A stretch of DNA of 44,179 nucleotides, taken from the NCBI GenBank assembly GCA_032279465.1, contig GCA_032279465.1_4357.1. The stretch is one strand, 5' to 3'. The notes under the pieces were generated by a model. That model was not told the DNA's origin and searched no databases. It worked only from the letters and a program-made list of their open reading frames with translations. Below, piece after piece: positions 1,694 to 38,752 of this stretch (position 1 is its first letter; the number at the start of each line of letters is the position of its first letter). This stretch comes from a phage. The position numbers and the translations under genes were made by a program.

Positions 1694-1893
1694 TTCTCCT
1701 GTTTACCAAGTCGCTTAGGTGAGCAGATAGCGCGTACCTCTGAATCGATGGGCTTGTCACCCTGAAACAGGAAGTGCGCGTTCTCTGCGGCGCGTGCCGC
1801 TGACTGGCACGCCCCCATCGAGTAAAACGTTTCCGATGCCGCGAGTTGCATCTGGCCTGCGGACAGTACCCAGATAAATAAGATGCTGGTCAT
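1690..1893 (-). CDS. Hypothetical protein
   Basis: 67 aa ORF, hydrophobic N-terminus, stop/start overlap with neighbours. Confidence 0.35.
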   Translation of the reverse strand: MTSILFIWVLSAGQMQLAASETFYSMGACQSAARAAENAHFLFQGDKPIDSEVRAICSPKRLGKQEK

Positions 1894-2333
1894 TCGGTTA
1901 TAGCTCCACCGCAGTTATCACAGACTACAGTGTTGCCGTAGTAAGTTCCGCAGTGAGCCGGAATGCACGAGCATACAGGTAGTTGAGCGTCTTCCTTTCG
2001 GCAACCGGATTGTTCTGGCGCATCCTTACATCCGAGTTCCTCAAGTGCTTTGCTAAGGTATTGGCGGCGCAAAGTGTCAGTCATTGCACTATTTGCCCGC
2101 CGGATGTACCCAATCGCGCCTTTAGGGTCCAGGTCAACGATTGAACGAAGACACATAACCTCGTTTTCAGCGCAATCCAGCGCACAGGTTAGTTCCTTAA
2201 TCTGCGCCGACGCGTCACGTAACTGATTCTTTAGTGACTGCACTTCATGCACCAGGTCTTCGCACTGGTTGCAGTTTACCTGCTGCCGTAGTTGGGCAAT
2301 CAGGTACTCGAATACTTCGTTTTTGTTACTCAT
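1890..2333 (-). CDS. Hypothetical coiled-coil protein with Cys-rich C-terminus
   Basis: 147 aa; predicted coiled coil then CSCIPAHCG...CDNCGG zinc-binding-like cluster; first gene behind promoter at 2365-2394. Confidence 0.45.
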   Translation of the reverse strand: MSNKNEVFEYLIAQLRQQVNCNQCEDLVHEVQSLKNQLRDASAQIKELTCALDCAENEVMCLRSIVDLDPKGAIGYIRRANSAMTDTLRRQYLSKALEELGCKDAPEQSGCRKEDAQLPVCSCIPAHCGTYYGNTVVCDNCGGAITE

Positions 2334-2364
2334 CTTCTGTCTCTCCTCTTGTTTGTGTAAATGA

Positions 2365-2394
2365 ATAGTAGCCTATTCTATCTTAGTGTGCAAG
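2365..2394 (-). promoter_or_regulatory. Sigma70-like promoter (type 1: TTGCAC-N18-TACTAT) with AATAG-N4-CTATT inverted repeat
   Basis: Minus-strand -35 TTGCAC (2389-2394), -10 TACTAT (2365-2370); inverted repeat 2364-2377; about 30 nt upstream of gene start 2333. Confidence 0.5.
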
Positions 2395-2551
2395 TAAATT
2401 TTATTGGTGTTTGTATTGTTGCATCTCCTGCAATAGTCGCTTCGATTGTTGCGTTTGATGGAAGTGTCGCCTTTTGACGACACTAAGTTAAAGTTGTACG
2501 CTGCCGTGTAGCAGCGTAAGTCACTCGGTAAAATCCCAAACTATTGACCTG

Positions 2552-2739
2552 TTACACCGGCGCCGGTGGTTCAGGTAAGGGCATCCAGTGCGTTATATCA
2601 CCGTGATATAAACTCTTTGCAGGCCCCAGTAGCCATCTGAATTAACACGCATAACCTCACAGCCAACAAAACAATCAGTTACAAGAACGTATTCATAAGG
2701 CTCCGGCATCCGCTCACTACACTTAATCCACTTGCTCAT
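2552..2739 (-). pseudogene. DUF551-like small protein, apparently frameshifted
   Basis: Frame from ATG 2739 gives MSKWIKCSERMPEPYEYVLV... then stops at 2593; the -1 frame continues ...HGDITHWMPLPEPPAPV to 2552, which is the hallmark DUF551 C-terminus recalled from memory. Confidence 0.4.
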
Positions 2740-2897
2740 AAATCGCCTCTCTTCTCAAATGCGCCAGCCATTACATTCGCACCAGCTTTCCACGCCCGCC
2801 ACGCGAGACGCGTCTTAACGTTCAGGTACTCTTTCTTCGAACCCTTATTAACCGGCAGACCCTCGACGATGGCCCACCGTTCGAATGCTTCTCTCAT
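2736..2897 (-). CDS. Hypothetical small protein (53 aa)
   Basis: ATG at 2897 overlaps upstream stop (ATGA); below ORF-track size cutoff. Confidence 0.3.
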   Translation of the reverse strand: MREAFERWAIVEGLPVNKGSKKEYLNVKTRLAWRAWKAGANVMAGAFEKRGDL

Positions 2898-3049
2898 ACC
2901 AGAACCTCGCATTCATCCCGATACACGAACAATAATGACCCTTTGTACTCAATCATAAAACCATAATGGTTGCTGCTGAACGCCAGAAAAACATCACCTA
3001 CCGAGATACCGAAATCTATAAGCCTGCGGTCAGTTATTCGAATTTTCAT
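2894..3049 (-). CDS. Hypothetical small protein (51 aa)
   Basis: ATG at 3049 overlaps upstream stop (TAATG); MKIRITDRRLIDFG... Confidence 0.3.
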   Translation of the reverse strand: MKIRITDRRLIDFGISVGDVFLAFSSNHYGFMIEYKGSLLFVYRDECEVLV

Positions 3050-3252
3050 TAACGGCAACCTCCCTCAGAGTCGTCGGCACGAGCATCATGATTCGATGCC
3101 GTTCGTATAGCCAGTAAGCTATTTAGCATTTGCTGGCTATCCATCGTAATAATTGTAATCCCGTCCGATAAATGCACCTCGTAGCGTTCAGCTACGAAAT
3201 ATATTTCCTCGAAATCATGATGTTTCAGTTCTTCAAATAATTCTTCCATCAC
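3049..3252 (-). CDS. Hypothetical acidic protein
   Basis: 67 aa ORF, coupled to flanking genes. Confidence 0.4.
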   Translation of the reverse strand: MMEELFEELKHHDFEEIYFVAERYEVHLSDGITIITMDSQQMLNSLLAIRTASNHDARADDSEGGCR

Positions 3253-3437
3253 TTCACCCTTTTAAATTTAAAATTGTTGCCGATGAGTTTTAACTCATTA
3301 GCTTCGTAATAAACCGAAGAAGTTAATCCGTCCTGCCTGATATAACGGATGATATAAGACCCTGGGTATACGACAGACTCTTTTCCGACAACACCAAAGC
3401 CATATGCTGTTTTCACCAACTGACCATTCTTAAACAT
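3249..3437 (-). CDS. Hypothetical protein
   Basis: ORF track 3249..3446; probable ATG at 3437 behind GGAGTGAGGG Shine-Dalgarno; first gene behind promoter 3472-3500. Confidence 0.4.
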   Translation of the reverse strand: MFKNGQLVKTAYGFGVVGKESVVYPGSYIIRYIRQDGLTSSVYYEANELKLIGNNFKFKRVK

Positions 3438-3471
3438 AACCCTCACTCCTCTGTCTCGTTTTGATAAGTGA

Positions 3472-3500
3472 ATAGTATCCTATTATGTTGGGGTGTGCAA
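3472..3500 (-). promoter_or_regulatory. Sigma70-like promoter (type 1: TTGCAC-N17-TACTAT) with AATAG-N4-CTATT inverted repeat
   Basis: Minus-strand -35 TTGCAC (3495-3500), 17-nt spacer, -10 TACTAT (3472-3477); inverted repeat 3471-3484. Confidence 0.55.
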
Positions 3501-3559
3501 GAGATTAGTTACGTTGCCGTTGTGATTCTTTCGTTTCTTAAAAGAGTACGCAACGCAGT

Positions 3560-3774
3560 GGGTGGGCGTTAGCCCACCCCAGCGGAGTGAAGTACTCTCT
3601 ATCTTGCTTACGGCAACTATAGAAACTTTTAATTATCAGTGACTTGGATATTTAGGCGGGATTAACAATAGACTTTGACCCTTCCGAAAGCGTCAGCGGA
3701 ACTACACTCAAGTGCCTAATGGCACGCGTTGCGTTCCCTGCCGCTCCGCGGTCGCTTGCGATATCTCACAAGCT
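3560..3774 (-). ncRNA. Structured leader RNA, copy A (putative antitermination/attenuator element)
   Basis: Non-coding; core 3665-3790 is a paralog of 35955-36078; predicted start near 3774 from promoter 3781-3809; 5' hairpin 3754-3773; covarying stem 3698-3702/3733-3737 enclosing hairpin 3712-3725; ends at GC hairpin 3560-3579. Confidence 0.45.
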
Positions 3775-3780
3775 CAGTGA

Positions 3781-3809
3781 AGCTTAGCATATTTTCAAGT
3801 AAAAGTCAA
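3781..3809 (-). promoter_or_regulatory. Promoter of leader RNA copy A (TTGACT-N17-TGcTAAGCT)
   Basis: Minus-strand -35 TTGACT (3804-3809), 17-nt spacer, extended -10 TGcTAAGCT (3781-3789); same architecture as 36069-36097. Confidence 0.5.
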
Positions 3810-3856
3810 TACCAGTAGCATCTTTTGTATTTTAGTAACTTTGCGTGGTGTTTTGG

Positions 3857-3885
3857 TTGCTTTTACATTCACGCTATCCTATACT
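3857..3885 (+). promoter_or_regulatory. Sigma70-like promoter for plus-strand early genes
   Basis: -35 TTGCTT (3857-3862), 17-nt spacer, -10 TATACT (3880-3885), about 30 nt upstream of ATG 3917. Confidence 0.45.
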
Positions 3886-3916
3886 CGTTTTCACCAAACA
3901 AACAGGAGATATAAAA

Positions 3917-4099
3917 ATGCAGCATTACATGACACAGAATGAAGTGGCTGAACGTATCGGGGTGACCCGTCAAACAATTAATAATTGGTTGCGCAGCGGT
4001 AAATTCCCTGATTGCTGTATTAAGGTTATGGGTCGCCGTTTACCAGGAACATTTGACCGTAATAAAGTTGAAGCATGGATTAAGGAGAACGTGAAATGA
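3917..4099 (+). CDS. Small HTH DNA-binding protein (AlpA/excisionase-like)
   Basis: ORF track 3845..4099; ATG 3917 behind AGGAG; helix-turn-helix segment NEVAERIGVTRQTINNWLRSGKFP. Confidence 0.6.
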   Translation: MQHYMTQNEVAERIGVTRQTINNWLRSGKFPDCCIKVMGRRLPGTFDRNKVEAWIKENVK

Positions 4100-4308
4100 T
4101 TGGGCGTATGGGTTGTTACTTTGAAAACTGTAAAGTTAAATACCGGTTTAAGTTTGCGCCGGAAATTACTGACAGCGGATTCTATGCGGAAATATGTAAG
4201 CCTAATCATTTGTTGGAACCGACACGCATTATTAAGATGCCAATCGAGGCTTTAAGTAAGTGTCGTTTCTACGCTTCGGAGCGTGCGTGGATTGCGGGCG
4301 TTAAGTAA
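4096..4308 (+). CDS. Hypothetical protein
   Basis: 70 aa ORF, ATGA overlap with upstream gene. Confidence 0.4.
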   Translation: MIGRMGCYFENCKVKYRFKFAPEITDSGFYAEICKPNHLLEPTRIIKMPIEALSKCRFYASERAWIAGVK

Positions 4309-4376
4309 AAGAAACCCCAACGCCAGAACGTCGGGGCTAAAGTACAAATCATCAAAGTAAGCATAAGGATTATACA

Positions 4377-4505
4377 ATGACAAAGTTAATAGTTCCACAG
4401 CTACGCCGCCAGAAACACGGCGCTGACTTCTTCGCACCGGTAAAGATGAACCGCGCAATGCGCCGTATGCAGGAAGCCTTAGAACGTGCGGAGAAAAAGA
4501 AATGA
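4377..4505 (+). CDS. Hypothetical small basic protein (42 aa)
   Basis: ATG 4377, stop overlaps primase start (ATGA); below ORF-track cutoff. Confidence 0.3.
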   Translation: MTKLIVPQLRRQKHGADFFAPVKMNRAMRRMQEALERAEKKK

Positions 4506-22594: not shown

Positions 22595-24933
22595 TATTTA
22601 AACCCCGGCGCATTTCTTGTGGCCTTGCGGGCCTTGCTAATCTTACTGTTACTGTTCTGCAAAGAGGCAGCAACTTGCTCTTCTATGATGATACGCAAAC
22701 GGCCTTCATCATCCTGCTCTGTGGATACGTTGCCGATCTGAGAACTCGTGTTGTTTACGATAGTAACATTAGACGGTCCGGAAGAAGACCCGTTTTGCCC
22801 CATAATTTCTTTCATCTGCTGTGCGGTGCGTACACGTGACGCACCAGCGGGCATGATAACTTCTGGTTTACCGCGTTCGGCGATGGTTGAAGCCTGCCCC
22901 GCGGATAACTGTCCGCCCTGTTCACGTGCGGACCTGATAGCGGAAATCTGCGCCATACCCGCCCCAACGGCAGCAGCGGCAGCTACAGGAGCCAGGAACG
23001 GGCCAACTACAGGGATAGCCGCTGTTGACTTATACGCCTCAATAGCCGCGGTGTACGTGGCTATAGTGGCCTGCACGATAGCGAATGCCTTGTACGCACC
23101 AGAAGCCTCGCCCAGCGCAGACCCGATGTTTGAAGCCATGTTGCCAAAGGCGGTTGCCGTTGCGTCGGCACGCTTCGTGGCGTACTGCTCGTTGATGGCA
23201 TTAAGCGCAGCCTGATACTGCTTCTCACTAATCAAACCCTGCTCGCGGTACTTATCTGCTACCGACAGTTTCTGCTGTTCCTGAATGTTGAGAAGCTCAA
23301 GCTCAGCGGCGTTCTGACCCATAATCTGAGCCATGAAGTCTTCACCTTTCTGGTTCTTTTCCTGCCGTTCTTTCTCTCGTTTAGCGAGTTCCTCCTGGCG
23401 AGCAGTGTCCGCTTCCAGCATAATCTGCGTCTTGGCGTTTTCGTACTGCTGGTCGCTAAGAAGCTGATTGCCGTAAAACTCCTGTAGCTTGGTTAACTGC
23501 TGTTCCTGGTTGGCTTCTATTTTCTGGAATACGTCATCATTGAGATGAATTGACTGATAGTAGAAATCCTCCGCGGCTTTCTTCTGGCGCTCGAACGCAT
23601 CCGCTGCTTTCTTAGCGGCTTTTGCACCCGCGCTATCATCTTCAGATCCGCCGCCGGTACCAGTTACCTTAAATTTACTAAGCCCTTCTTCCTTAGCGGC
23701 TTCTTTGTCGATGTCATACGCTGCGCGTTTAAGCGCGACGATATTTTGCTGAGCCTCCACCTGTTCGCGGAAACTTTTACGTGTCAGGTCCGCAACGTCG
23801 CGCTGAGTATCCAGTGCCATCCCCAGCTGGAAGTTAATATTTTTTGCTACGTCTACGGATTCCCCTGGTGTGAAGGCGGCCTTAACCAGCCGACCGGCAT
23901 CCTGCGCCCCTTTAACCATATCCTCAAAGAAGCGCTCCATCGCGGTAAATTCTTCCGCGATGAAATCGAGCGCATCGGCGGCTGATTCCGCTATGGTTGT
24001 CGCCGTTTGTTCGCCGCTATCCGTGATACTTTTGCTACTAAAATCCCAAAGCTCATTTAGCCCGTTTATCGCATCACCCACGAAACCAAATGCCGCGTCG
24101 AATGACATCTCTATTGCGCTTCCTACTTCCGACGCGATGTCGCCCCACATACGCATCTCTGCGGCAAGTTCACCGGATGCAACCTGTGCGTTAAGTTCCT
24201 GGATTAAATCATCGATGTATCGGATAGGTTCGGCGAGCGCACCAACATCAAGACTGGTAGCCAGTGTCATTTTTAACTGCGACCATGAGTCGCTGGCACT
24301 GGCGATGGCCCCGTTAAGTGTGTTGGCCTGGTCCGCCATAGCCCCCGCGAAGTTTACGTTACCGATGTTGAGCAGGTATTGCTCGATGTCGGCAGCGCTC
24401 TTCTTAACTACCGTAGTAGTACCCTGGAATGTAAATTCAACATCGTTTTTGTTCTGTTTGGCCTTGATACCAAATTCTTTAAGGCGCTCAAATTCAAAAG
24501 TACTAGCGTCTGCAACCGCCTCAATCATCTGATTCAGGTCTTTACCCATAGCAGCGGCGGTGTTTCCGTAGGAACGCAACGCTTCTTCTGACGGTGTAAG
24601 ACCAAGCGCCACAAGTTTACGGAATCCCTCTACCGCCTGTTCAAGGCCATACGGAGTGTCGCGCGCGAAGTCTTGCAGGATGCTTAACGCCTGTCTTGCA
24701 CCCTGCGTGCTTCCGGTTAGTGTTTTCAGGCTGGCGGACATCTTGTCTAGTTGCCGTTGGGATTCTACCAGTTCCTGTGCGGCCTTGTAAGCGGTAGCGG
24801 CGACGATGGAAGCGAGGCCCGCTACCGCAGCTCCGGCTACCTTTGCAGACTTGGAAAGGTTATCAAGACGGTCTGATGTAGCTTTCGCGCCTTGCTCTGA
24901 TACTTTTACAACTAAACTAGCTACATCAGCCAT
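22594..24933 (-). CDS. Tail tape measure protein
   Basis: 779 aa, long coiled-coil/Ala-rich low-complexity protein following chaperone genes. Confidence 0.8.
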   Translation of the reverse strand: MADVASLVVKVSEQGAKATSDRLDNLSKSAKVAGAAVAGLASIVAATAYKAAQELVESQRQLDKMSASLKTLTGSTQGARQALSILQDFARDTPYGLEQAVEGFRKLVALGLTPSEEALRSYGNTAAAMGKDLNQMIEAVADASTFEFERLKEFGIKAKQNKNDVEFTFQGTTTVVKKSAADIEQYLLNIGNVNFAGAMADQANTLNGAIASASDSWSQLKMTLATSLDVGALAEPIRYIDDLIQELNAQVASGELAAEMRMWGDIASEVGSAIEMSFDAAFGFVGDAINGLNELWDFSSKSITDSGEQTATTIAESAADALDFIAEEFTAMERFFEDMVKGAQDAGRLVKAAFTPGESVDVAKNINFQLGMALDTQRDVADLTRKSFREQVEAQQNIVALKRAAYDIDKEAAKEEGLSKFKVTGTGGGSEDDSAGAKAAKKAADAFERQKKAAEDFYYQSIHLNDDVFQKIEANQEQQLTKLQEFYGNQLLSDQQYENAKTQIMLEADTARQEELAKREKERQEKNQKGEDFMAQIMGQNAAELELLNIQEQQKLSVADKYREQGLISEKQYQAALNAINEQYATKRADATATAFGNMASNIGSALGEASGAYKAFAIVQATIATYTAAIEAYKSTAAIPVVGPFLAPVAAAAAVGAGMAQISAIRSAREQGGQLSAGQASTIAERGKPEVIMPAGASRVRTAQQMKEIMGQNGSSSGPSNVTIVNNTSSQIGNVSTEQDDEGRLRIIIEEQVAASLQNSNSKISKARKATRNAPGFK

Positions 24934-25285
24934 CGTTTCTACCCTCGAAAATAGCGTCTAAGCTCATGATGATGTCAGATTCAAACATGCCTATATTCTG
25001 GCCTGAAACGGTGCTATATGCCACTAAATCCGACCATCTTAACTGTTCACGCGGATACATCTTGATGCCATCATCGTCCACTCGGCGGGTGAATTTGATT
25101 TCCCTGTACTTCTCGAAGGTGGTTAATAGCTCAGGGGGGCATTCTGGTCCGGTGTCCTGCGTTGCTTCCGGCGCGTCTTGCATAACCCCCATAGCAATTA
25201 GCGCGGCTTTATGCCCGTCGGAGATACTGTCAAACTCCCGCCGTTTGTGGCGAGTTATGAAGTTCCAACGGGCAAACTGGAGCAA
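24926..25285 (-). CDS. Tail assembly chaperone, T portion (expressed as G-T fusion by -1 frameshift)
   Basis: No ATG; -1 frame from GGAAAAG (25294-25300) at end of G ORF reads ...VDALLQFARWNF straight into this ORF. Confidence 0.5.
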   Translation of the reverse strand: MLQFARWNFITRHKRREFDSISDGHKAALIAMGVMQDAPEATQDTGPECPPELLTTFEKYREIKFTRRVDDDGIKMYPREQLRWSDLVAYSTVSGQNIGMFESDIIMSLDAIFEGRNDG

Positions 25286-25290
25286 CGCGT

Positions 25291-25707
25291 CTACTTTTCC
25301 TGCAATTGGTGAAGCTGTTCGTTGTGGAAAACAACAACGTGTTCAGCGAGGCGTTTATATTGTGAAAAAAGAGTATTCAGGTTCTCTTTATTAAATTCAT
25401 CGTCGAGACTCCAACCGTTAACCAGTTCAAGTGCTAACTGGCGGTTAAGGTCCGTCGCGGCGTCTTCCATCTTAATGTTATATTCCGAGAAATCTTTCAG
25501 TTCCTCGCATTTATCACGAAGCGGCTTCAGTTTACCTAACGACGCGCGGTACGCCAGGGTAAATGCACGCATGGCTTTAACCGCAACGTCCGCCTCCGGT
25601 GAAACAACGTTCAGCCACTCCCCTGAATCGGTGCCGTCTTTCAGTGGGATCGGCATACGGGAGCCTTTTTCTGCCTCAGCTTCGTAATAAAAATCAGAAA
25701 GTTTCAT
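25291..25707 (-). CDS. Tail assembly chaperone, G-like
   Basis: 138 aa, between major tail and tape measure genes; ends at slippery GGAAAAG followed by TAG. Confidence 0.55.
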   Translation of the reverse strand: MKLSDFYYEAEAEKGSRMPIPLKDGTDSGEWLNVVSPEADVAVKAMRAFTLAYRASLGKLKPLRDKCEELKDFSEYNIKMEDAATDLNRQLALELVNGWSLDDEFNKENLNTLFSQYKRLAEHVVVFHNEQLHQLQEK

Positions 25708-25814
25708 TCTTTAATCCTTTGGTTAAGAGGTTACGGGTTAAGGTTAATGCGCCAGACGGGAACCACCCGCTTTTCGTGTGCGACACTAGGCGCAAAATTA
25801 TTCTATCACATTAC

Positions 25815-25843
25815 TTGCACACCCCAATATAATAGTGTACTAT
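25815..25843 (+). promoter_or_regulatory. Sigma70-like promoter (type 1: TTGCAC-N17-TACTAT) of plus-strand accessory island
   Basis: -35 25815-25820, -10 25838-25843, inverted repeat 25831-25844; about 40 nt upstream of ATG 25885. Confidence 0.55.
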
Positions 25844-25884
25844 TCACTTACACCGACGATGTTATCCCAAACAGGAGCTACACC

Positions 25885-26076
25885 ATGACGGGTATTACTA
25901 TGTTCTTCTTAATCATTATCGTTTTAGTTTATTTTATTCCATTTCTCGTGGCGCATATGCGCGACCATAAAGCGAAATTAGCGATATTCATGGCTAATCT
26001 GTTTCTTGGATGGGTTCTGCTGCCGTGGGTATTTATTTTAATCTGGGCTTGCAACTCGAATGTCAAAGAGAAGTGA
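25885..26076 (+). CDS. Superinfection immunity-like small membrane protein
   Basis: 63 aa; IPFLVAHMRDHKAKLAIFMANLFLGWVLLPWVFILIWA resembles Imm-superinfection family proteins (recalled from memory); ACAGGAG Shine-Dalgarno; AT-rich. Confidence 0.5.
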   Translation: MTGITMFFLIIIVLVYFIPFLVAHMRDHKAKLAIFMANLFLGWVLLPWVFILIWACNSNVKEK

Positions 26077-26113
26077 GCTAGTATAGGACAAATCCTAAGC
26101 ACGAGGAATAAAC

Positions 26114-27244
26114 ATGGCCCGGAAGAAAATAACCGACGAACAGTTGCAGGAAGAATTGAACGCCGGTATGAAGAATGTAGATATCGCCCGTAAATACGGC
26201 ATCTCAGACCGCGTAATTCGTATCCGTAAAGCGAAGCTGGCTAAGAAAGGCGTGGGCCACGGGCGCGACGTTAGCCACCTTGTGCCAGACGGCTACAAGA
26301 TTAAAGGAACGTCGTCACTTGTGGACGAGTTCGGCAACACTAAGTTGCAATGGGTTAAGACTGATACCGACGCCGAACGTCAGGTTGAATTGATGGAAAC
26401 CGTAATAGAGGGCATGAAGTCAGAGATTACGCCCGTTGCGCCTGTTAAAGCGGCGCGCGCCAAACGTGACGACAAGCTACTCAATCTTTACACGGTATCT
26501 GATTTCCATCTCGGTATGCTGGCATGGGCCGATGAGAGCGGCGACGACTGGGGCATGAAGATTGCAGAAGACCTGTTCTCTCGGTGGTTCGACGCGGCGT
26601 TTCAGAAAGCACCGGATGCAGGAACAGGAGTTATTAACCTGCTTGGGGACTTCGCACACTTCGATAGTCTTGATGCCGTTACCCCCGAGTCACGCCATGT
26701 ATTAGATGCGGATACTCGCTATCAGAAACTGGTACGTTACATGATTCGTATGGTCCGCCGTGTTGTTGATATGGCGCTGGTTAAGCATCACACAGTAAAA
26801 CTTTTAATCGTTCAAGGTAACCACGACCCTGTTGGCTCCGTATGGCTTGCCGAAATGTTCACGGTTTTATACTCAAACGACAGCCGAGTGATTGTTGATA
26901 CGTCGCCGGATGTTTACAAGATGGTGCAACACGGCAAAACGACGCTGTTCTTCCATCACGGGCATAAAGCACGATTCGACGCTATCGAACCGGTTATGAT
27001 TGCCAAGTTCCGTAAAGCGTTCGGCGAGAGTGTTTACAGCTACGCCCACGTAGGCCATCTGCACCACCAGAAGATTGTAGAAAGCCGTAACATGATTGTT
27101 GGGCAACACCGCACCTTAGCGGCTAAAGACGCCTACGCCTCTCGCGGCGGATGGATGTCGGGCCGCAGTGCAAATGTAATTACTTATAGCGCCGAATATG
27201 GCGAGGTCGCACGTTTAACTATTTCACCGGAGATGCTGGGATGA
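26114..27244 (+). CDS. Calcineurin-like metallophosphoesterase with N-terminal HTH
   Basis: 376 aa; metallophosphatase motifs DFHLG, GDFAHFD, GNHD, HHGH, GHLHH; N-terminal DIARKYGISDRVIRIRK helix-turn-helix. Confidence 0.6.
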   Translation: MARKKITDEQLQEELNAGMKNVDIARKYGISDRVIRIRKAKLAKKGVGHGRDVSHLVPDGYKIKGTSSLVDEFGNTKLQWVKTDTDAERQVELMETVIEGMKSEITPVAPVKAARAKRDDKLLNLYTVSDFHLGMLAWADESGDDWGMKIAEDLFSRWFDAAFQKAPDAGTGVINLLGDFAHFDSLDAVTPESRHVLDADTRYQKLVRYMIRMVRRVVDMALVKHHTVKLLIVQGNHDPVGSVWLAEMFTVLYSNDSRVIVDTSPDVYKMVQHGKTTLFFHHGHKARFDAIEPVMIAKFRKAFGESVYSYAHVGHLHHQKIVESRNMIVGQHRTLAAKDAYASRGGWMSGRSANVITYSAEYGEVARLTISPEMLG

Positions 27245-27729
27245 AAGATATTGTAATTTTCGATTTAGACGGGACATTGGCTGACGGTACCCATCGCTTA
27301 CACCTGTTACCAAAAGATAACTACGGAGAAACGTGGGCGTGGAAGCCATTTAACATGGCCTGCAAAGATGACGCTCCGATATACGACAATATCCATTTGT
27401 GTAGCGTACTGTGGCATTCCGGACTTACTATAATTATCCTTACCGGGCGAAGTGATGACGCTGAGGAGGAGACTCGCGAATGGTTACGAGAGAATAACGT
27501 TAGGTTTGACACGCTAATCATGCGCGGCAAACACGACAACAGAAAAGACATCGTAATTAAAGAAGAGGTGTTGCGTGCTTTCGGACTGGAAAGAATCTTG
27601 TGTGCGTTCGACGACTCTCCAGCGGTAATAAAGCATTTCCGTGACCTCGGCATAACCGCACACGCAGTTACCGAATACGACTGTAACGGGAACTCTACAC
27701 ACTTAAAACCACACGGGAGCGATAAATAA
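27241..27729 (+). CDS. HAD-superfamily phosphatase/nucleotidase
   Basis: 162 aa; HAD motif I FDLDGTL. Confidence 0.6.
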   Translation: MKDIVIFDLDGTLADGTHRLHLLPKDNYGETWAWKPFNMACKDDAPIYDNIHLCSVLWHSGLTIIILTGRSDDAEEETREWLRENNVRFDTLIMRGKHDNRKDIVIKEEVLRAFGLERILCAFDDSPAVIKHFRDLGITAHAVTEYDCNGNSTHLKPHGSDK

Positions 27730-28283
27730 TGGCTAAGGTAATTATTCTTAATGGCCCTGCGGGTTGCGGGAAAGACACGCTTGCTATGGCGCTGGTAGAA
27801 ATGGGCTTTGCGAAAGGAACTACCAGTTTCAAGAATCCAATGTTCAATATTGCTTTGGCAGCGTTAGGCCAGGATGCTTACCACGAATTTCTCGACGGCT
27901 ACGACGACCGGGCGCGGAAAGAAAAACCCGAGGGTTTTCTTAATGGGTTGTCCCGCCGCCGGTTAATGATTGCCATTTCTGAGCAATTCATTAAACCGGT
28001 ATTCGGCGATGATTATTTCGGTAAGTATCTTGCTGAAAACTTGCCTGACGGCGACGAAGTTTTTGTAGTGTCCGATGGTGGATTCGCCAGTGAAGTTGCC
28101 CCTATCGTCGCCGCGGGGCATGACGTGCGAATCGTCCGCCTCCATCGTGACGGCTATACGTTCATCCGCGATAGCCGTGGCTATCTGTACGATGTTAGTG
28201 GTGTAAAAGATTACGACACCTACATCATACCGGGTGACGTTAAATCGAACGTTATAGACATTGCTTTAAAATTAGGTTTGTAA
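27729..28283 (+). CDS. Deoxynucleoside monophosphate kinase (T4 gp1-like)
   Basis: 184 aa; P-loop ILNGPAGCGKDT at N-terminus. Confidence 0.6.
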   Translation: MAKVIILNGPAGCGKDTLAMALVEMGFAKGTTSFKNPMFNIALAALGQDAYHEFLDGYDDRARKEKPEGFLNGLSRRRLMIAISEQFIKPVFGDDYFGKYLAENLPDGDEVFVVSDGGFASEVAPIVAAGHDVRIVRLHRDGYTFIRDSRGYLYDVSGVKDYDTYIIPGDVKSNVIDIALKLGL

Positions 28284-28287
28284 GAAA

Positions 28288-28315
28288 AAGGCCCCGAAAG
28301 GGGCCTTAGTTTTAT
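28288..28315. terminator. Bidirectional Rho-independent terminator
   Basis: Stem AAGGCCCC/GGGGCCTT with loop GAAA, then TAGTTTTAT; between dNMP kinase and convergent major tail gene. Confidence 0.65.
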
Positions 28316-29484
28316 GCGTAGGTGATACGTTGAATTACGATAGACGACTGGTACTGATTGCCGGTAGCCTGGCCTTCAATGGACTGAGTGATTGACTCAG
28401 GCCCACCAATCTCAGGTGTAACCGCCGTAAGCTCTGCACGTTTCAAACTGAAAGACATAGCCCCGTTTACCCCTGCCAGAATAGAGTTAATCTCTACCTG
28501 CTGCTCGTTGATAAACTTCTGAATCATCGCCATGTCGTACAGCTTACCGGAGATGGAGAAGGTGTTAGCTGCTCGGCTACGCTCCACAAACGCTACGTTA
28601 GTGTTGCCGAGTTCGAACTGTGCGGACGCGCTGTTGTCGTTGGTGATGGTCAGGCTATCGCAACGCAACGGCGTAGAACCGTCGAACACAGAAACATCGA
28701 CCGAGGAGAATGGCTCGTCACCAAAAGTAACAGATGAGAAGTTGGAACCGGTCGGCGGCGTAGTGAGAATCTCCTGACTGCGACCGATGAATGGGAAGCT
28801 GCCAGTTACCATCGCGTTAACAGCCTGTTCGATGGTAAAACCAGAAACTTCCACGCCTTTGGTTAACGTGTACGCGTCAGTACCGCCGCACTGGCCTTTG
28901 TACCAGGTAAGGATAGAGAACGTCTTACACGTGTTACCGGTTTCCAGCGTGTCGCCGGTTTTAGCCTTACTGGTTTTTGTCTCGGTGGTCAGGGTGTGTT
29001 GGATGCCCGCACCAGTAACAACGGTATCCGTTACTGCGGTAACAATAAATGGTTTTGCGTTATCGCCTGTTAAGTCGGTAAACGCAATCAGGTCGCCTAC
29101 CCCAACTCCGTCAGTGATAAAACTGCCGGTAGCGCGTGTGAACGTCTTGCCCGCGGGTGCGACGGTAATTGATAGCCCGGTCAGAGAACTACCGGCATGC
29201 CATGTAGAGCCTAAAGCGCCCGCCAGCCAGTCGTCCTGGCTTTTCGAGCTAAGCTCGATGGCGTATTCTCCACTAACCTGTTTGTTACCGGTGCGGATGG
29301 ACGTAGTTTCACGGCTGCCGTCCAGTTCGTTGGAGGTCAGCGTGTCGCGGGTAATGGCAGGAACGCCACCTGTGTTACGCAATGGTGACCAGACCGGGTT
29401 AGTCGGTGTTACGCCAGGGGTAGTTTCTGCCACATAGAATTGCGCGGTATTCGCGCCCTTAAAAGGAGTTGTAGCCATATTCAC
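28312..29484 (-). CDS. Major tail (tube) protein
   Basis: 390 aa, position after tail terminator-like gene and before chaperones. Confidence 0.55.
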   Translation of the reverse strand: MNMATTPFKGANTAQFYVAETTPGVTPTNPVWSPLRNTGGVPAITRDTLTSNELDGSRETTSIRTGNKQVSGEYAIELSSKSQDDWLAGALGSTWHAGSSLTGLSITVAPAGKTFTRATGSFITDGVGVGDLIAFTDLTGDNAKPFIVTAVTDTVVTGAGIQHTLTTETKTSKAKTGDTLETGNTCKTFSILTWYKGQCGGTDAYTLTKGVEVSGFTIEQAVNAMVTGSFPFIGRSQEILTTPPTGSNFSSVTFGDEPFSSVDVSVFDGSTPLRCDSLTITNDNSASAQFELGNTNVAFVERSRAANTFSISGKLYDMAMIQKFINEQQVEINSILAGVNGAMSFSLKRAELTAVTPEIGGPESITQSIEGQATGNQYQSSIVIQRITYA

Positions 29485-38098: not shown

Positions 38099-38752
38099 AT
38101 GAAACTGCAAACATTAGAGTTCCCTTATGGAGAAATCACTTTTGACCGTGAAAACTTTATTAACGTAAACGAGCTGGTTGACCAGATGAACCGTTGGCGT
38201 TTAGACAACGGCATGGGGGCCAGAGAGCTTCGCCAGGTCATGGCAACGGATGGCTTCAAGATTTTCAAGGAGGAATGCGAAAAACAACTCGGAATCGAGA
38301 ATGCCATAAGGGCGACGAAAGGCCGAAACGGTCGCACCTTTGCATGTCTCCATCTGGCAGTATATATTGCGGAGCAATACAGCGCCTATTTCCATTTCCT
38401 CGTTATCGACCGCTTTATCACACAACGGCAGGTAGAACTACGAAACATTGGCGCGGTGAGCTTTGTCGAGCTTAACGCTGCCGTTAGTCGAATGATCGAG
38501 CGCACGGAGGGAAGAATTGGCCACAGTGGACACTTCATACAGGTGGCTAAAGCGGTAAAGGAATCCGTAGATATCCGCGACGTAACGGGTTTCGATACAT
38601 GGGACTCTCAGGATGCGAAGACCAATCAGTTGCGAAGTGACATCCAGAAAGCTCTGGTGACGCTTCTTGACATGGAGGCCGTTAATACATGGGGTGAACT
38701 GAAAGAGGCGATACCTCGGGTTGTGCGTAAATGTGCGGCTAATATACGTTAA
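38099..38752 (+). CDS. KilA-N domain protein (moron)
   Basis: 217 aa; GRNGRTFACLHLAVYIAEQYSAYFHFLVIDRF resembles KilA-N core; own promoter and terminator; opposite orientation to late genes. Confidence 0.5.
   Translation: MKLQTLEFPYGEITFDRENFINVNELVDQMNRWRLDNGMGARELRQVMATDGFKIFKEECEKQLGIENAIRATKGRNGRTFACLHLAVYIAEQYSAYFHFLVIDRFITQRQVELRNIGAVSFVELNAAVSRMIERTEGRIGHSGHFIQVAKAVKESVDIRDVTGFDTWDSQDAKTNQLRSDIQKALVTLLDMEAVNTWGELKEAIPRVVRKCAANIR

What the first reader, a model, noticed from the sequence alone, without database searches (positions are those of the whole stretch)
25815..28315. Plus-strand accessory island inside the tail gene cluster: Imm-like protein, HTH-metallophosphoesterase, HAD phosphatase, dNMP kinase
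Seen in sequence: four co-oriented genes with their own promoter (25815-25843) and terminator (28288-28315) are inserted between the major tail gene and the tail chaperone genes, opposite to the late operon. Domain motifs: Imm-superinfection-like membrane protein; calcineurin-like phosphoesterase (DFHLG, GDFAHFD, GNHD, GHLHH) with N-terminal HTH; HAD motif FDLDGTL; P-loop kinase GPAGCGKDT. Inference: a moron-like module combining superinfection exclusion with nucleotide-pool manipulation, possibly countering host nucleotide-depletion or nucleotide-signalling defences. The HTH-phosphoesterase fusion is the least expected component.
Basis: partly seen in the sequence, partly recalled or inferred. 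Interest (0 to 1): 0.6.

Follow-up and report, generated by a model that had tools for sequence, protein, structure and literature searches.

The report
Conserved accessory operon in tail genes
The four-gene island is real, but it is a long-annotated, subfamily-wide feature of Kagunavirus/Jerseyvirus phages: a small membrane "immunity" protein plus a nuclease-like phosphoesterase, a 3'-phosphatase and a nucleotide kinase that most likely recycle DNA breakdown products, with no evidence that they counter host defences.

Summary
Four co-oriented plus-strand genes (25885-28283) sit between the tail-tube gene and the tail-chaperone genes. They have a phylogenetically conserved sigma-70 promoter (25815-25843) and a strong bidirectional terminator (28288-28307). 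All quoted motifs are present.

The window is a Kagunavirus, 99.6% identical to a GenBank phage. The island occupies the same slot in all ten Guernseyvirinae loci whose gene content I tabulated, so it is not a recent moron.

The slot is modular:
- Position 1: Imm or a signal-peptide protein.
- Position 2: the HTH-metallophosphoesterase, always present.
- Position 3: exchangeable cargo. The HAD + kinase pair is found in only about 50 of more than 300 records.

The HTH-phosphoesterase is the most conserved part, not the oddest; its family occurs in about 2,000 phage genomes.

- The phosphoesterase's closest folds are DNA nucleases (PolD DP1, SbcD, Mre11).
- The HAD protein is a full-length homologue of the T4 Pnkp 3'-phosphatase domain.
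- The kinase is T4 gp1/T5 Dnk-like.

The three enzymes recur together, in the same order, in unrelated phages, once with a non-orthologous phosphoesterase.

Best reading: DNA breakdown and nucleotide salvage. Main rival: DNA or RNA end healing. The anti-defence idea has no support. Novelty is low and no member has been tested experimentally.

The parts
25815..25843 (+). Sigma-70-type promoter of the island: -35 TTGCAC (25815-25820), 17-nt spacer, -10 TACTAT (25838-25843)
   Evidence: Both hexamers fall in invariant columns of the 9-phage Kagunavirus/Jerseyvirus alignment. SETP3 carries an annotated BPROM promoter in the equivalent intergenic region between the chaperone and Imm genes. The overlapping ATCACA-17-TATAAT hit is not conserved.
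25885..26076 (+). Imm-like small membrane protein, 63 aa, two hydrophobic helices
   Evidence: PF14373 E 9.5e-14, 51.5 bits against a cut-off of 27.9. PHROG 1039 'immunity to superinfection' 1.6e-23. Hydropathy shows two hydrophobic segments. AGGAG lies 7 nt upstream of the ATG.
26114..27244 (+). HTH-metallophosphoesterase, 376 aa: N-terminal three-helix HTH (about residues 8-44), a beta-hairpin/helix linker domain (61-104) and a binuclear metallophosphoesterase domain (119-376)
27241..27729 (+). Stand-alone HAD phosphatase of the polynucleotide kinase-phosphatase (Pnkp) type, 162 aa; its start overlaps the phosphoesterase stop (ATGA)
   Evidence: PF25109 HAD_PNKP 5.7e-20. PHROG 415 2.4e-64. 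Best PDB relatives are the Pnkp1 and T4 PNK phosphatase domains. BLASTP against T4 Pnkp residues 162-300, E 9e-10, with DxDGT, R, GR, RKD and DD aligned. These residues are invariant in 35 homologues, except the Arg of the GR motif (R70), which is not.
27729..28283 (+). P-loop kinase of the dNMP-kinase-like family, 184 aa; its start overlaps the HAD stop (TAATG)
   Evidence: PHROG 139 5.3e-44. AlphaFold2 pLDDT 94.8. Foldseek top hit is T4 dNMP kinase 1DEK, E 5e-6, TM 0.64. hhalign against T5 Dnk gives 95% probability over the GxGKDT and SFxxP region.
28288..28315 (.). Bidirectional intrinsic terminator shared with the convergent tail gene: hairpin 28288-28307 plus T-runs on both strands
   Evidence: z = -3.84. 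SETP3 has an annotated terminator at the same position.

Best explanation
The island is an ancestral transcription unit, read by the host RNA polymerase, embedded antisense in the tail operon of Guernseyvirinae. It holds two functionally separate things.

(1) A cell-envelope slot. Here it holds an Imm-type two-helix membrane protein. In other members it holds a signal-peptide protein instead. This slot most likely modifies the infected cell's envelope, for example to exclude superinfecting phages.

(2) A nucleic-acid phosphoryl-processing cassette. I propose it works as a breakdown-to-precursor salvage line:
- The HTH-metallophosphoesterase binds DNA and cleaves it as a Mn/Mg-dependent nuclease. 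Its target would be host or damaged DNA.
- The Pnkp-type HAD phosphatase removes the 3'-phosphates that such cleavage leaves on oligonucleotides or mononucleotides.
- The dNMP-kinase-like enzyme converts the resulting 5'-dNMPs to dNDPs. Host NDP kinase then turns these into dNTPs for phage replication.

What is shown: gene structure, conserved promoter and terminator, intact catalytic motifs in all three enzymes, fold relationships, and recurrent linkage of the three genes.

What is inferred: every substrate assignment, the order of the reactions, expression timing, and the exclusion role of Imm.
For: Linkage
- The phosphoesterase, HAD and kinase genes are adjacent and in the same order in Pseudomonas podovirus MR4. 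Identities are 53%, 53% and about 43%. They lie between exonuclease/endonuclease VII genes and DNA ligase.
- The same trio occurs in IMG/VR loci L029 and L040-L045. L041 has a 51,170-bp contig, the genome size reported for Pantoea phage AAS23.
- In Drexlerviridae, a 522-genome pangenome study found these two genes to be the commonest genes directly after the 'DNA repair exonuclease' (PMC13164509).
- In L061, a different phosphoesterase family (phrog_221) sits directly upstream of the HAD-kinase pair. This is non-orthologous displacement and argues for functional coupling.
- Every kinase relative above about 44% identity has the HAD gene just upstream, except one disrupted copy, L038.

Enzymology by homology
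- HAD: full-length homologue of the T4 Pnkp phosphatase domain with conserved catalytic residues.
- Kinase: top fold match is T4 gp1, and it shares the GKDT P-loop and SFxxP motif with T5 Dnk.

Gene context
- Immediate neighbours of kinase homologues in 62 loci are DNA and nucleotide metabolism genes: HAD_PNKP 9, DNA ligase 9, HD nucleotidase 3, NT5C 2, and thymidylate synthases two genes upstream.

Biology
- T1 and TLS, whose family (Drexlerviridae) carries all three gene families, degrade the host chromosome and reuse its nucleotides. The responsible genes have not been identified (PMC11447400).
- A mycobacteriophage metallophosphoesterase degrades host DNA (PMC12287305).

Imm is independent of the enzymes
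- Imm or phrog_14165 occupies slot 1 regardless of what occupies slot 3.
- Imm does not accompany the phosphoesterase in the Dhillonvirus Bas83 or Pseudomonas MR4 loci examined.
Against: - No member of the phosphoesterase family (PHROG 704) or of this kinase clade has been assayed. There is no sequence-level match to any solved structure.
- By sequence, the kinase matches T4 gp1 and T4 Pnkp only at the P-loop. Its substrate could therefore be a polynucleotide 5'-OH.
- None of the Jerseyvirus loci examined, and only some Kagunavirus loci, carry the HAD-kinase pair, and Dhillonvirus Bas83 keeps the phosphoesterase alone. The phosphoesterase must therefore have a role that does not need the other two.
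- E. coli already has dNMP kinases.
- Host DNA degradation by Kagunaviruses has not been reported in the papers I read.
- The only transcriptome available (PMC12645636) is unsynchronised and gives no usable timing.
Confidence: 0.4

Rival explanations
1. End-healing or repair cassette, acting as a split Pnkp plus a trimming nuclease. The HAD enzyme removes 3'-phosphates and the P-loop kinase phosphorylates 5'-OH ends of broken DNA or RNA. The phosphoesterase trims blocked ends or opens 2',3'-cyclic phosphates. A ligase then seals the nick: host LigA here, a phage ligase elsewhere. This would repair phage DNA, or tRNA/mRNA, cut by host nucleases.
For: - The HAD protein belongs to the polynucleotide 3'-phosphatase family and is a full-length homologue of that T4 Pnkp domain.
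- The HAD and kinase genes are translationally coupled. Their order, phosphatase then kinase, matches mammalian PNKP (my own knowledge).
- An ATP-dependent DNA ligase directly follows the trio in MR4 and L043, and a similarly sized, unscanned ORF follows it in L044. A ligase directly precedes the kinase in 9 of 62 loci.
- Clostridium thermocellum Pnkp combines a kinase with a metallophosphoesterase (my own knowledge).
- By sequence the kinase matches T4 Pnkp about as well as T4 gp1, 81% against 68% probability, at the P-loop only.
Against: - The kinase's best structural match is T4 dNMP kinase. No polynucleotide kinase appears in the top 50 Foldseek hits.
- The T5 Dnk similarity extends beyond the P-loop.
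- No relative annotated in full has a ligase gene: neither an RNA ligase nor a DNA ligase in the Kagunavirus.
- Ligase adjacency is also expected simply from membership of a DNA-metabolism gene cluster, as with T7 genes 1.3 and 1.7.
Confidence: 0.25
2. One reading: an anti-defence module. The phosphoesterase and HAD enzymes would degrade immune signalling nucleotides, or the kinase would restore or reshape dNTP pools against depletion defences. One variant is that the kinase removes dNMP alarm signals such as m6-dAMP.
For: - A calcineurin-type phosphoesterase plus a HAD phosphatase can act as a coupled cascade on free nucleotides, and dNMPs released by phage-induced host-DNA degradation act as an immune trigger (PUA-Cal-HAD, PMC12871103).
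- Rv0805-type cyclic-nucleotide phosphodiesterases are among the fold matches.
- The island lies in a cargo-exchange hotspot next to an exclusion-type gene.
Against: - No similarity to any PADLOC model, though PADLOC models defence rather than anti-defence proteins.
- An HTH DNA-binding domain is conserved across the family, and nuclease folds rank first.
- The phosphoesterase is a persistent core gene of whole phage families: 508 of 522 Drexlerviridae and every Guernseyvirinae locus I tabulated. Known anti-defence genes are usually patchily distributed.
- Kagunaviruses were not unusually robust in the BASEL defence panel.
- A dNMP kinase cannot reverse dGTPase or dCTP-deaminase products (reasoning).
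Confidence: 0.1
3. The HTH-phosphoesterase is mainly a DNA-bound regulator or a protein phosphatase, like lambda phosphatase, that reprograms host or phage transcription. On this view the HAD and kinase genes are unrelated cargo that happen to share its operon.
For: - The N-terminal HTH resembles GerE/FixJ/sigma-70 region 4 and a PHROG 'late transcriptional activator'.
- Some annotators call the protein a Ser/Thr phosphatase.
- It lies beside an unusually conserved intergenic block.
- The phosphoesterase occurs without the HAD-kinase pair in the Jerseyvirus loci examined and in Dhillonvirus Bas83.
Against: - The trio recurs in at least four unrelated phage groups and shows non-orthologous phosphoesterase displacement. 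That is hard to explain if the genes were functionally unrelated.
Confidence: 0.1

Closest known systems
The same locus in published Guernseyvirinae genomes (vB_EcoS-22664BS2, K1G ORF18-21, SETP3 ORF20-23, Jersey, S142)
   Same: Identical position between the tail-tube gene and the tail chaperone genes, with the same promoter and terminator. The DNA is 99.6% identical to MZ234010. The genes are already annotated as superinfection immunity protein, DNA repair exonuclease/metallophosphoesterase, polynucleotide kinase/phosphatase and dNMP kinase.
   Different: Nothing differs structurally. Jerseyviruses and some Kagunaviruses carry other cargo after the phosphoesterase: a 76-aa phrog_2452-like protein, Ant-like DNA-binding proteins or an HNH endonuclease. 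Some have phrog_14165 in place of Imm.
T4 polynucleotide kinase-phosphatase (PseT/Pnkp)
   Same: The HAD protein aligns with the entire Pnkp phosphatase domain (residues 162-300) with the catalytic residues conserved. A P-loop kinase is encoded next to it.
   Different: Here there are two separate proteins in the reverse order. The kinase resembles dNMP kinases in fold rather than the Pnkp kinase domain. No RNA ligase partner is annotated in the close relative K-02.
T4 gp1 and T5 Dnk deoxynucleoside monophosphate kinases
   Same: NMP-kinase fold and an unusual GxGKDT P-loop. T4 gp1 is the top structural hit. T5 Dnk shares the P-loop and the SFxxP motif. Both belong to a phage pathway that turns dNMPs into dNDPs.
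   Different: The window's kinase is shorter: 184 aa against 241 and 250. Sequence similarity is confined to the N-terminal 37-50 residues. Substrate range is unknown.
Mre11/SbcD and the PolD DP1 exonuclease (nuclease branch of the metallophosphoesterases)
   Different: No Rad50/SbcC partner gene is annotated in the close relative K-02. There is an extra N-terminal HTH and a beta-hairpin domain. There is no detectable sequence similarity. This is a distinct, phage-specific clade (PHROG 704).
Phosphoesterase ('DNA repair exonuclease') - PNK - dNMP kinase arrangement in Drexlerviridae (PMC13164509) and the trio in Pseudomonas phage MR4
   Same: The same three families in the same order. [quoted passage not shown]
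   Different: In those phages the genes lie next to the lysis cassette or inside the DNA-metabolism cluster. Here they are embedded antisense in the tail operon, behind an Imm gene.
PUA-Calcineurin-CE-HAD defence system (PMC12871103)
   Same: It pairs a calcineurin-type metallophosphoesterase with a HAD phosphatase acting on deoxynucleotides.
   Different: That is a host defence with a PUA sensor domain and filament assembly. Homology to the phage proteins could not be tested because no sequence or structure was available to me. The phage phosphoesterase has an HTH, not a PUA domain.

Membership tests
Imm_superinfect (PF14373; T4 Imm-like) | Match to the family HMM above the curated cut-off | tested here: met
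   51.5 bits against a cut-off of 27.9, E 9.5e-14. PHROG 1039 1.6e-23.
Imm_superinfect (PF14373; T4 Imm-like) | Small protein with two membrane-spanning helices | tested here: met
   63 aa. Hydropathy peaks at about residues 1-23 and 31-55, separated by the basic loop RDHKAK.
Imm_superinfect (PF14373; T4 Imm-like) | Blocks DNA entry of superinfecting phage | not testable with these tools
   Needs an exclusion assay with 25885-26076 expressed in the host.
Binuclear metallophosphoesterase (calcineurin-like) superfamily | Five metal-binding motifs: DxH, GD, GNH(D/E), H, GHxH | tested here: met
   D130, H132, G178, D179, N236, H237, H282, G314 and H317 are invariant, and G235, D238 and H315 nearly invariant (at least 90%), in 70 homologues at 29-49% identity.
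Binuclear metallophosphoesterase (calcineurin-like) superfamily | Pfam Metallophos/Metallophos_2 score above the gathering threshold | tested here: not met
Mre11/SbcD nucleases | Rad50/SbcC ATPase partner encoded alongside | tested here: not met
   No SMC-type gene is annotated in the complete genome of the close relative K-02, nor next to the phosphoesterase in the other loci.
Mre11/SbcD nucleases | Nuclease activity on DNA | not testable with these tools
   Only fold ranking is available.
HAD_PNKP (polynucleotide 3'-phosphatase domain) | Family HMM above cut-off, and a DxDGT nucleophile motif | tested here: met
   72.3 bits against a cut-off of 27.6. D8-L-D10-G-T12 is invariant.
HAD_PNKP (polynucleotide 3'-phosphatase domain) | Counterparts of the residues I recall as essential in the T4 Pnkp phosphatase (D165, D167, R176, R213, D254, D277/278) | tested here: met
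   The BLASTP alignment (E 9e-10) pairs them with D8, D10, R19, R70, D99 and D124/D125. All are at least 95% conserved in the family except R70. The list of essential T4 residues is from my own knowledge.
Bifunctional Pnkp (T4 type) | Kinase and phosphatase domains in one polypeptide, with a Pnkp-type kinase domain | tested here: not met
   There are two separate ORFs. The kinase fold is closest to dNMP kinase 1DEK. Sequence similarity to T4 Pnkp covers 25 P-loop columns only.
Phage dNMP kinases (PHROG 139; T4 gp1, T5 Dnk) | Family HMM match and NMP-kinase fold with a GKD(T) P-loop | tested here: met
   PHROG 139 5.3e-44. 1DEK is the top fold hit with TM 0.64. GKDT is shared with T4 gp1 and T5 Dnk.
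Phage dNMP kinases (PHROG 139; T4 gp1, T5 Dnk) | Full-length homology to a biochemically characterised member | tested here: inconclusive
   hhalign against T5 Dnk: 95% probability, but over 50 columns only. Against T4 gp1: 68% over 37 columns.
Phage dNMP kinases (PHROG 139; T4 gp1, T5 Dnk) | Phosphorylates dNMPs | not testable with these tools
   Needs an enzyme assay.
Moron (independently transcribed accessory insertion) | Own promoter and terminator, located between genes of a late operon | tested here: met
Moron (independently transcribed accessory insertion) | Present in some but absent from other closely related phages | tested here: not met
   The unit, with promoter and phosphoesterase, is present in all ten GenBank Guernseyvirinae loci tabulated and in all 16 IMG/VR Kagunavirus loci. 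The latter were retrieved through the kinase, so they say nothing about how common the HAD-kinase cargo is. Only positions 1 and 3 vary.

The most novel reading that the evidence does not exclude
The phosphoesterase-HAD-kinase trio could be a phage counter-measure to immunity that senses or depletes deoxynucleotides. While the phage nuclease dismantles host DNA, the kinase and phosphatase would rapidly clear free dNMPs and 3'-phosphorylated products. That would include alarm molecules such as m6-dAMP, which trigger PUA-Cal-HAD-type systems. The same enzymes would refill the dNDP/dNTP pool. On this view salvage and immune evasion are one pathway, and this would be the first anti-defence role for a dNMP kinase.
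Probability: 0.07. Interest if true: 0.75.

Novelty: new member of a known kind. Interest (0 to 1): 0.3.

Why it matters
As a genome feature the island is ordinary. It is already annotated in hundreds of Kagunavirus and Jerseyvirus records.

What is worth keeping is the comparative result. An uncharacterised, very widespread phage phosphoesterase family occurs in about 4% of sequenced phage genomes and is a core gene of Drexlerviridae and Guernseyvirinae. It is repeatedly linked to a Pnkp-type 3'-phosphatase and a dNMP-kinase-like enzyme.

That yields a concrete, testable candidate for an old open question: which genes of T1-type phages degrade the host chromosome and recycle its nucleotides.

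The finding also flags the Guernseyvirinae slot as a natural cargo-exchange site with its own promoter and terminator. This could be useful for engineering these small therapeutic phages.

Tried and rejected
Searches that gave nothing informative
- Sequence searches of the phosphoesterase and kinase against PDB, with single sequences and with profiles, returned only P-loop or HTH noise.
- NCBIfam and PADLOC gave nothing informative.
- hhalign of the kinase profile against T4 gp1 and T4 Pnkp could not discriminate, because only the P-loop aligned.
- Literature searches found genome announcements and one pangenome paper, but no biochemistry for any of the three enzyme clades.

Ideas tested and rejected
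- The conserved intergenic block as a structured RNA or repeated regulatory site: no Rfam hit, fold z = 0.29, single copy in the window.
- The 76-aa ORF that replaces the HAD-kinase pair in relatives as a HAD remnant: it is an unrelated phrog_2452-like protein.
- DNA hypermodification, in the manner of the dTMPase plus dNMP-kinase logic of PBS2/SPO1-type phages: no thymidylate-synthase-like or modification genes are annotated in the close relative K-02, and Kagunaviruses are highly sensitive to restriction-modification systems.
- The scanner's best promoter (ATCACA-17-TATAAT): not conserved in Jerseyvirus.

Other
- The Kagunavirus transcriptome paper is unsynchronised and could not date expression of the island.
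- GC content of the island (0.43-0.53) is only slightly below its flanks, giving no clear sign of foreign origin.


Full report
**What is there**

The window is a Kagunavirus (Guernseyvirinae) genome. The region 25700-28350 is 99.6% identical to Escherichia phage vB_EcoS-22664BS2 and 86-93% identical to K1G-type phages.

Four plus-strand ORFs lie at 25885-26076, 26114-27244, 27241-27729 and 27729-28283. Imm and the phosphoesterase have good ribosome-binding sites. The last two junctions overlap (ATGA and TAATG).

The ORFs sit between a minus-strand tail protein gene (28312-29484, PHROG 290) and the tail assembly chaperone. The tail protein is called the major tail or tail tube protein in several relatives. 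The chaperone's two halves (25291-25707 and 24926-25285) match positions 1-138 and 143-259 of one PHROG family, so it is the usual frameshifted pair.

**Promoter and terminator**

It is TTGCAC (25815-25820), a 17-nt spacer, then TACTAT (25838-25843), and both hexamers fall in invariant columns. The better-scoring ATCACA-17-TATAAT found by the consensus scanner is not conserved in Jerseyvirus.

Promoter-like hits in the region are no more frequent than in shuffled sequence (7 found against 9.3 expected). The argument therefore rests on conservation, not on the consensus match.

The hairpin at 28288-28307 is far more stable than shuffled controls (z = -3.84). It has T-runs on both strands, so it ends both the island and the convergent tail gene. 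SETP3 carries an annotated BPROM promoter in the equivalent intergenic region and a terminator between its last island gene and the tail gene.

**The island is ancestral and modular, not a recent moron**

The slot is laid out the same way in all ten GenBank Guernseyvirinae loci whose gene content I tabulated: the window, K-02, K1G, ZCEC5, 536P11, XY2, Jersey, SETP3, S142, and RP180 from hit annotation only. The 16 IMG/VR Kagunavirus loci agree. The layout is:
- Chaperone gene, then the conserved intergenic region and promoter.
- Slot 1, a small exported or membrane protein.
- The HTH-metallophosphoesterase.
- Slot 3, variable cargo.
- The terminator, then the tail gene.

Slot 1 holds either the Imm-like protein or a 108-aa signal-peptide protein (phrog_14165). 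The second option is found in XY2, Jersey, L019, L020, L023, L025 and L026.

Slot 3 holds the HAD + kinase pair in about 50 of the 317 records that match the region by megablast. Elsewhere it holds a 76-aa phrog_2452-like protein, with or without an HNH endonuclease and Ant-like DNA-binding proteins.

The choices in slots 1 and 3 combine freely. GC content is only slightly below that of the flanks.

**The four proteins**

1. *Imm.* PF14373 scores above its cut-off and there are two hydrophobic helices. The family assignment is sound. An exclusion function has not been tested.

2. *HTH-metallophosphoesterase.*
   - Pfam scores fall below the cut-off. However, PHROG 704 matches at 5.7e-160, and all five metal-binding motifs are invariant in 70 homologues of 29-49% identity.
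   - The AlphaFold2 model (pLDDT 92.9) shows an N-terminal three-helix HTH, a beta-hairpin/helix linker domain and the catalytic domain.
   - No solved structure is detectable by sequence.
   - The family is very large: 4,471 clusters at 50% identity and 2,007 of 50,697 phage records. These include Guernseyvirinae, Dhillonvirus, Drexlerviridae, and phages of Vibrio, Campylobacter and Rhodobacter.
   - The HTH is part of the family consensus. The fusion is therefore the family norm, and this gene is the most conserved part of the island.

3. *HAD phosphatase.*
   - HAD_PNKP scores above its cut-off.
   - The best solved relatives are the phosphatase domains of Pnkp1 and T4 Pnkp.
   - BLASTP aligns it with T4 Pnkp residues 162-300 (E 9e-10), and the DxDGT, Arg, GR, RKD and DD positions are matched.
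   - These positions are invariant in 35 homologues, except the Arg of the GR motif (R70).

4. *Kinase.*
   - PHROG 139 matches at 5.3e-44 and the model has pLDDT 94.8.
   - The best fold match is T4 dNMP kinase 1DEK (TM 0.64), followed by adenylate kinases and phosphomevalonate kinase.
   - Profile comparison with the biochemically characterised T5 Dnk gives 95% probability over the GxGKDT P-loop and the following SFxxP motif.
   - T4 gp1 and T4 Pnkp align only around the P-loop.
   - The protein is therefore dNMP-kinase-like, but its substrate is not settled.

**The three enzymes travel together**

- In Pseudomonas podovirus MR4 the same three genes are adjacent and in the same order. Identities are 53%, 53% and about 43%. 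They lie between exonuclease/endonuclease VII genes and an ATP-dependent DNA ligase.
- I scanned 64 non-Kagunavirus loci retrieved through kinase homology. Seven have the contiguous trio (L029, L040-L045). Five have the HAD-kinase pair without a PHROG-704 phosphoesterase. Seven Drexlerviridae-type loci have the HAD gene about 1 kb upstream of the kinase. More distant kinases stand alone.
- In L061, one of the HAD-kinase-only loci, the gene directly upstream of the HAD gene is a phosphoesterase from a different family, phrog_221. This is non-orthologous displacement and argues for a functional link.
- A Pfam census of the ORFs next to the 62 kinase homologues finds DNA and nucleotide metabolism genes: HAD_PNKP 9, DNA ligase 9, HD-domain 3, NT5C 2 and Metallophos 2. 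Thymidylate synthases lie two genes upstream.
- A 2026 pangenome study of 522 Drexlerviridae reports the 'DNA repair exonuclease' as persistent, within a core module detected in 508 of 522 genomes. It finds polynucleotide kinase and dNMP kinase to be the commonest genes directly after it, and reads them as enhancing nucleotide supply (PMC13164509).
- Imm does not accompany the phosphoesterase in the two non-Guernseyvirinae loci I examined for this.

**Mechanism**

I commit, at about 40%, to a salvage line. The DNA-binding phosphoesterase cuts host or damaged DNA. The Pnkp-type phosphatase clears 3'-phosphates from the products. The kinase raises 5'-dNMPs to dNDPs for phage replication.

Two things support this beyond the homologies. 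T1 and TLS belong to Drexlerviridae, which carries all three families; they degrade the host chromosome and reuse its nucleotides, and the genes responsible are still unidentified (PMC11447400). Separately, a mycobacteriophage metallophosphoesterase has been shown to break down host DNA (PMC12287305).

The main rival, at about 25%, is end healing. The HAD-kinase pair would act as a split Pnkp that makes 3'-P/5'-OH breaks ligatable, with the phosphoesterase trimming the ends. This fits the HAD family and the frequent ligase neighbours. It conflicts with the kinase's fold ranking and with the absence of any annotated ligase in the close relative K-02.

There is a precedent for a calcineurin-type phosphoesterase and a HAD phosphatase acting as a nucleotide cascade, and for dNMPs acting as immune triggers (PMC12871103). 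Nothing here points that way, however:
- There are no PADLOC hits, although PADLOC models defence proteins, not anti-defence proteins.
- Nuclease folds rank first.
- The phosphoesterase is distributed like a core gene rather than patchily.
- Kagunaviruses showed no special robustness in the BASEL defence panel.

A purely regulatory or protein-phosphatase role for the HTH-phosphoesterase gets about 10%.

The phosphoesterase occurs without the HAD-kinase pair in all the Jerseyvirus loci examined and in Dhillonvirus Bas83. Whatever it does, it does not require them. The pair is an optional extension.

**Verdict**

The anatomy and domain calls are right. The 'moron', 'least expected fusion' and 'anti-defence' claims are not.
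- The feature itself is already annotated in public genomes, so novelty is low.
- The useful residue is a testable hypothesis for a very common, uncharacterised phage enzyme trio.

Noticed in passing
window 25745-25795 (intergenic, upstream of the island promoter): A block of about 50 nt (TGCGCCAGACGGGAACCACCCGCTTTTCGTGTGCGACACTAGGCGC) is almost invariant between Kagunavirus and Jerseyvirus, although the neighbouring coding DNA is only 66-73% identical. It occurs once in the window, shows no RNA-fold signal (z = 0.29) and has no Rfam match. Its function is unexplained. It could be an operator or the 5' UTR of the leftward tail-chaperone transcript.
   Followed up: partly
window 25800-25808, minus strand: TGATAGAAT reads as an extended -10 element pointing leftward. 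Its TGnTA core is invariant across both genera. It is a candidate promoter that would let the chaperone, tape-measure and distal-tail genes be transcribed independently of read-through across the island and its terminator.
   Followed up: partly
L004:3173-3499, L006:2685-3014; also L019, L020, L023, L025, L026: In these Guernseyvirinae the Imm gene is replaced at exactly the same position by a 108-aa protein with an N-terminal signal-peptide-like segment (phrog_14165, function unknown). It behaves as an allelic alternative in the envelope slot and occurs independently of the downstream cargo.
   Followed up: partly
L003:5128-5358, L004:4692-4922, L006, L007, L008, L009: Where the HAD + kinase pair is absent, a conserved 76-aa protein follows the phosphoesterase, often overlapping its stop codon. 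It matches the C-terminal part of phrog_2452 and has no Pfam hit. XY2 annotates it, apparently wrongly, as 'phosphodiesterase'.
   Followed up: partly
L029:5969-6454, L007:4031-4501 (S142); possibly also L045:5690-6193 (not scanned): HNH homing endonuclease genes are inserted directly after the phosphoesterase gene in unrelated phages. This suggests the 3' end of that gene is a homing hotspot, which may help explain the cargo turnover at this position.
   Followed up: no
L061:4629-5594 (ORFs of matching size and position in L055 and L065 were not scanned): In this phage, which carries a single-subunit RNA polymerase gene, a phosphoesterase of a different family (phrog_221, 321 aa, no HTH-family match) sits directly upstream of the HAD-kinase pair. 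The RNA polymerase gene follows.
   Followed up: partly
window 38099-38752 (+): A second opposite-strand gene lies inside the minus-strand head/portal region: a 217-aa amidase (phrog_6095, E 9e-121, category lysis). It is separate from the holin/endolysin cassette annotated in relatives.
   Followed up: no
window 24926-25707 (-): The two tail-chaperone ORFs match positions 1-138 and 143-259 of one PHROG family, and K1G annotates a joined product. This implies a programmed translational frameshift of the G/GT type. I did not look for the slippery site.
   Followed up: no
L005 (Dhillonvirus Bas83) 1696-4477; Drexlerviridae per PMC13164509: Outside Guernseyvirinae the same phosphoesterase family is syntenic with the lysis cassette. 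It lies after holin-holin-endolysin in Dhillonvirus and before holin-endolysin-spanin in 508 of 522 Drexlerviridae. The reason for this linkage is unknown.
   Followed up: no
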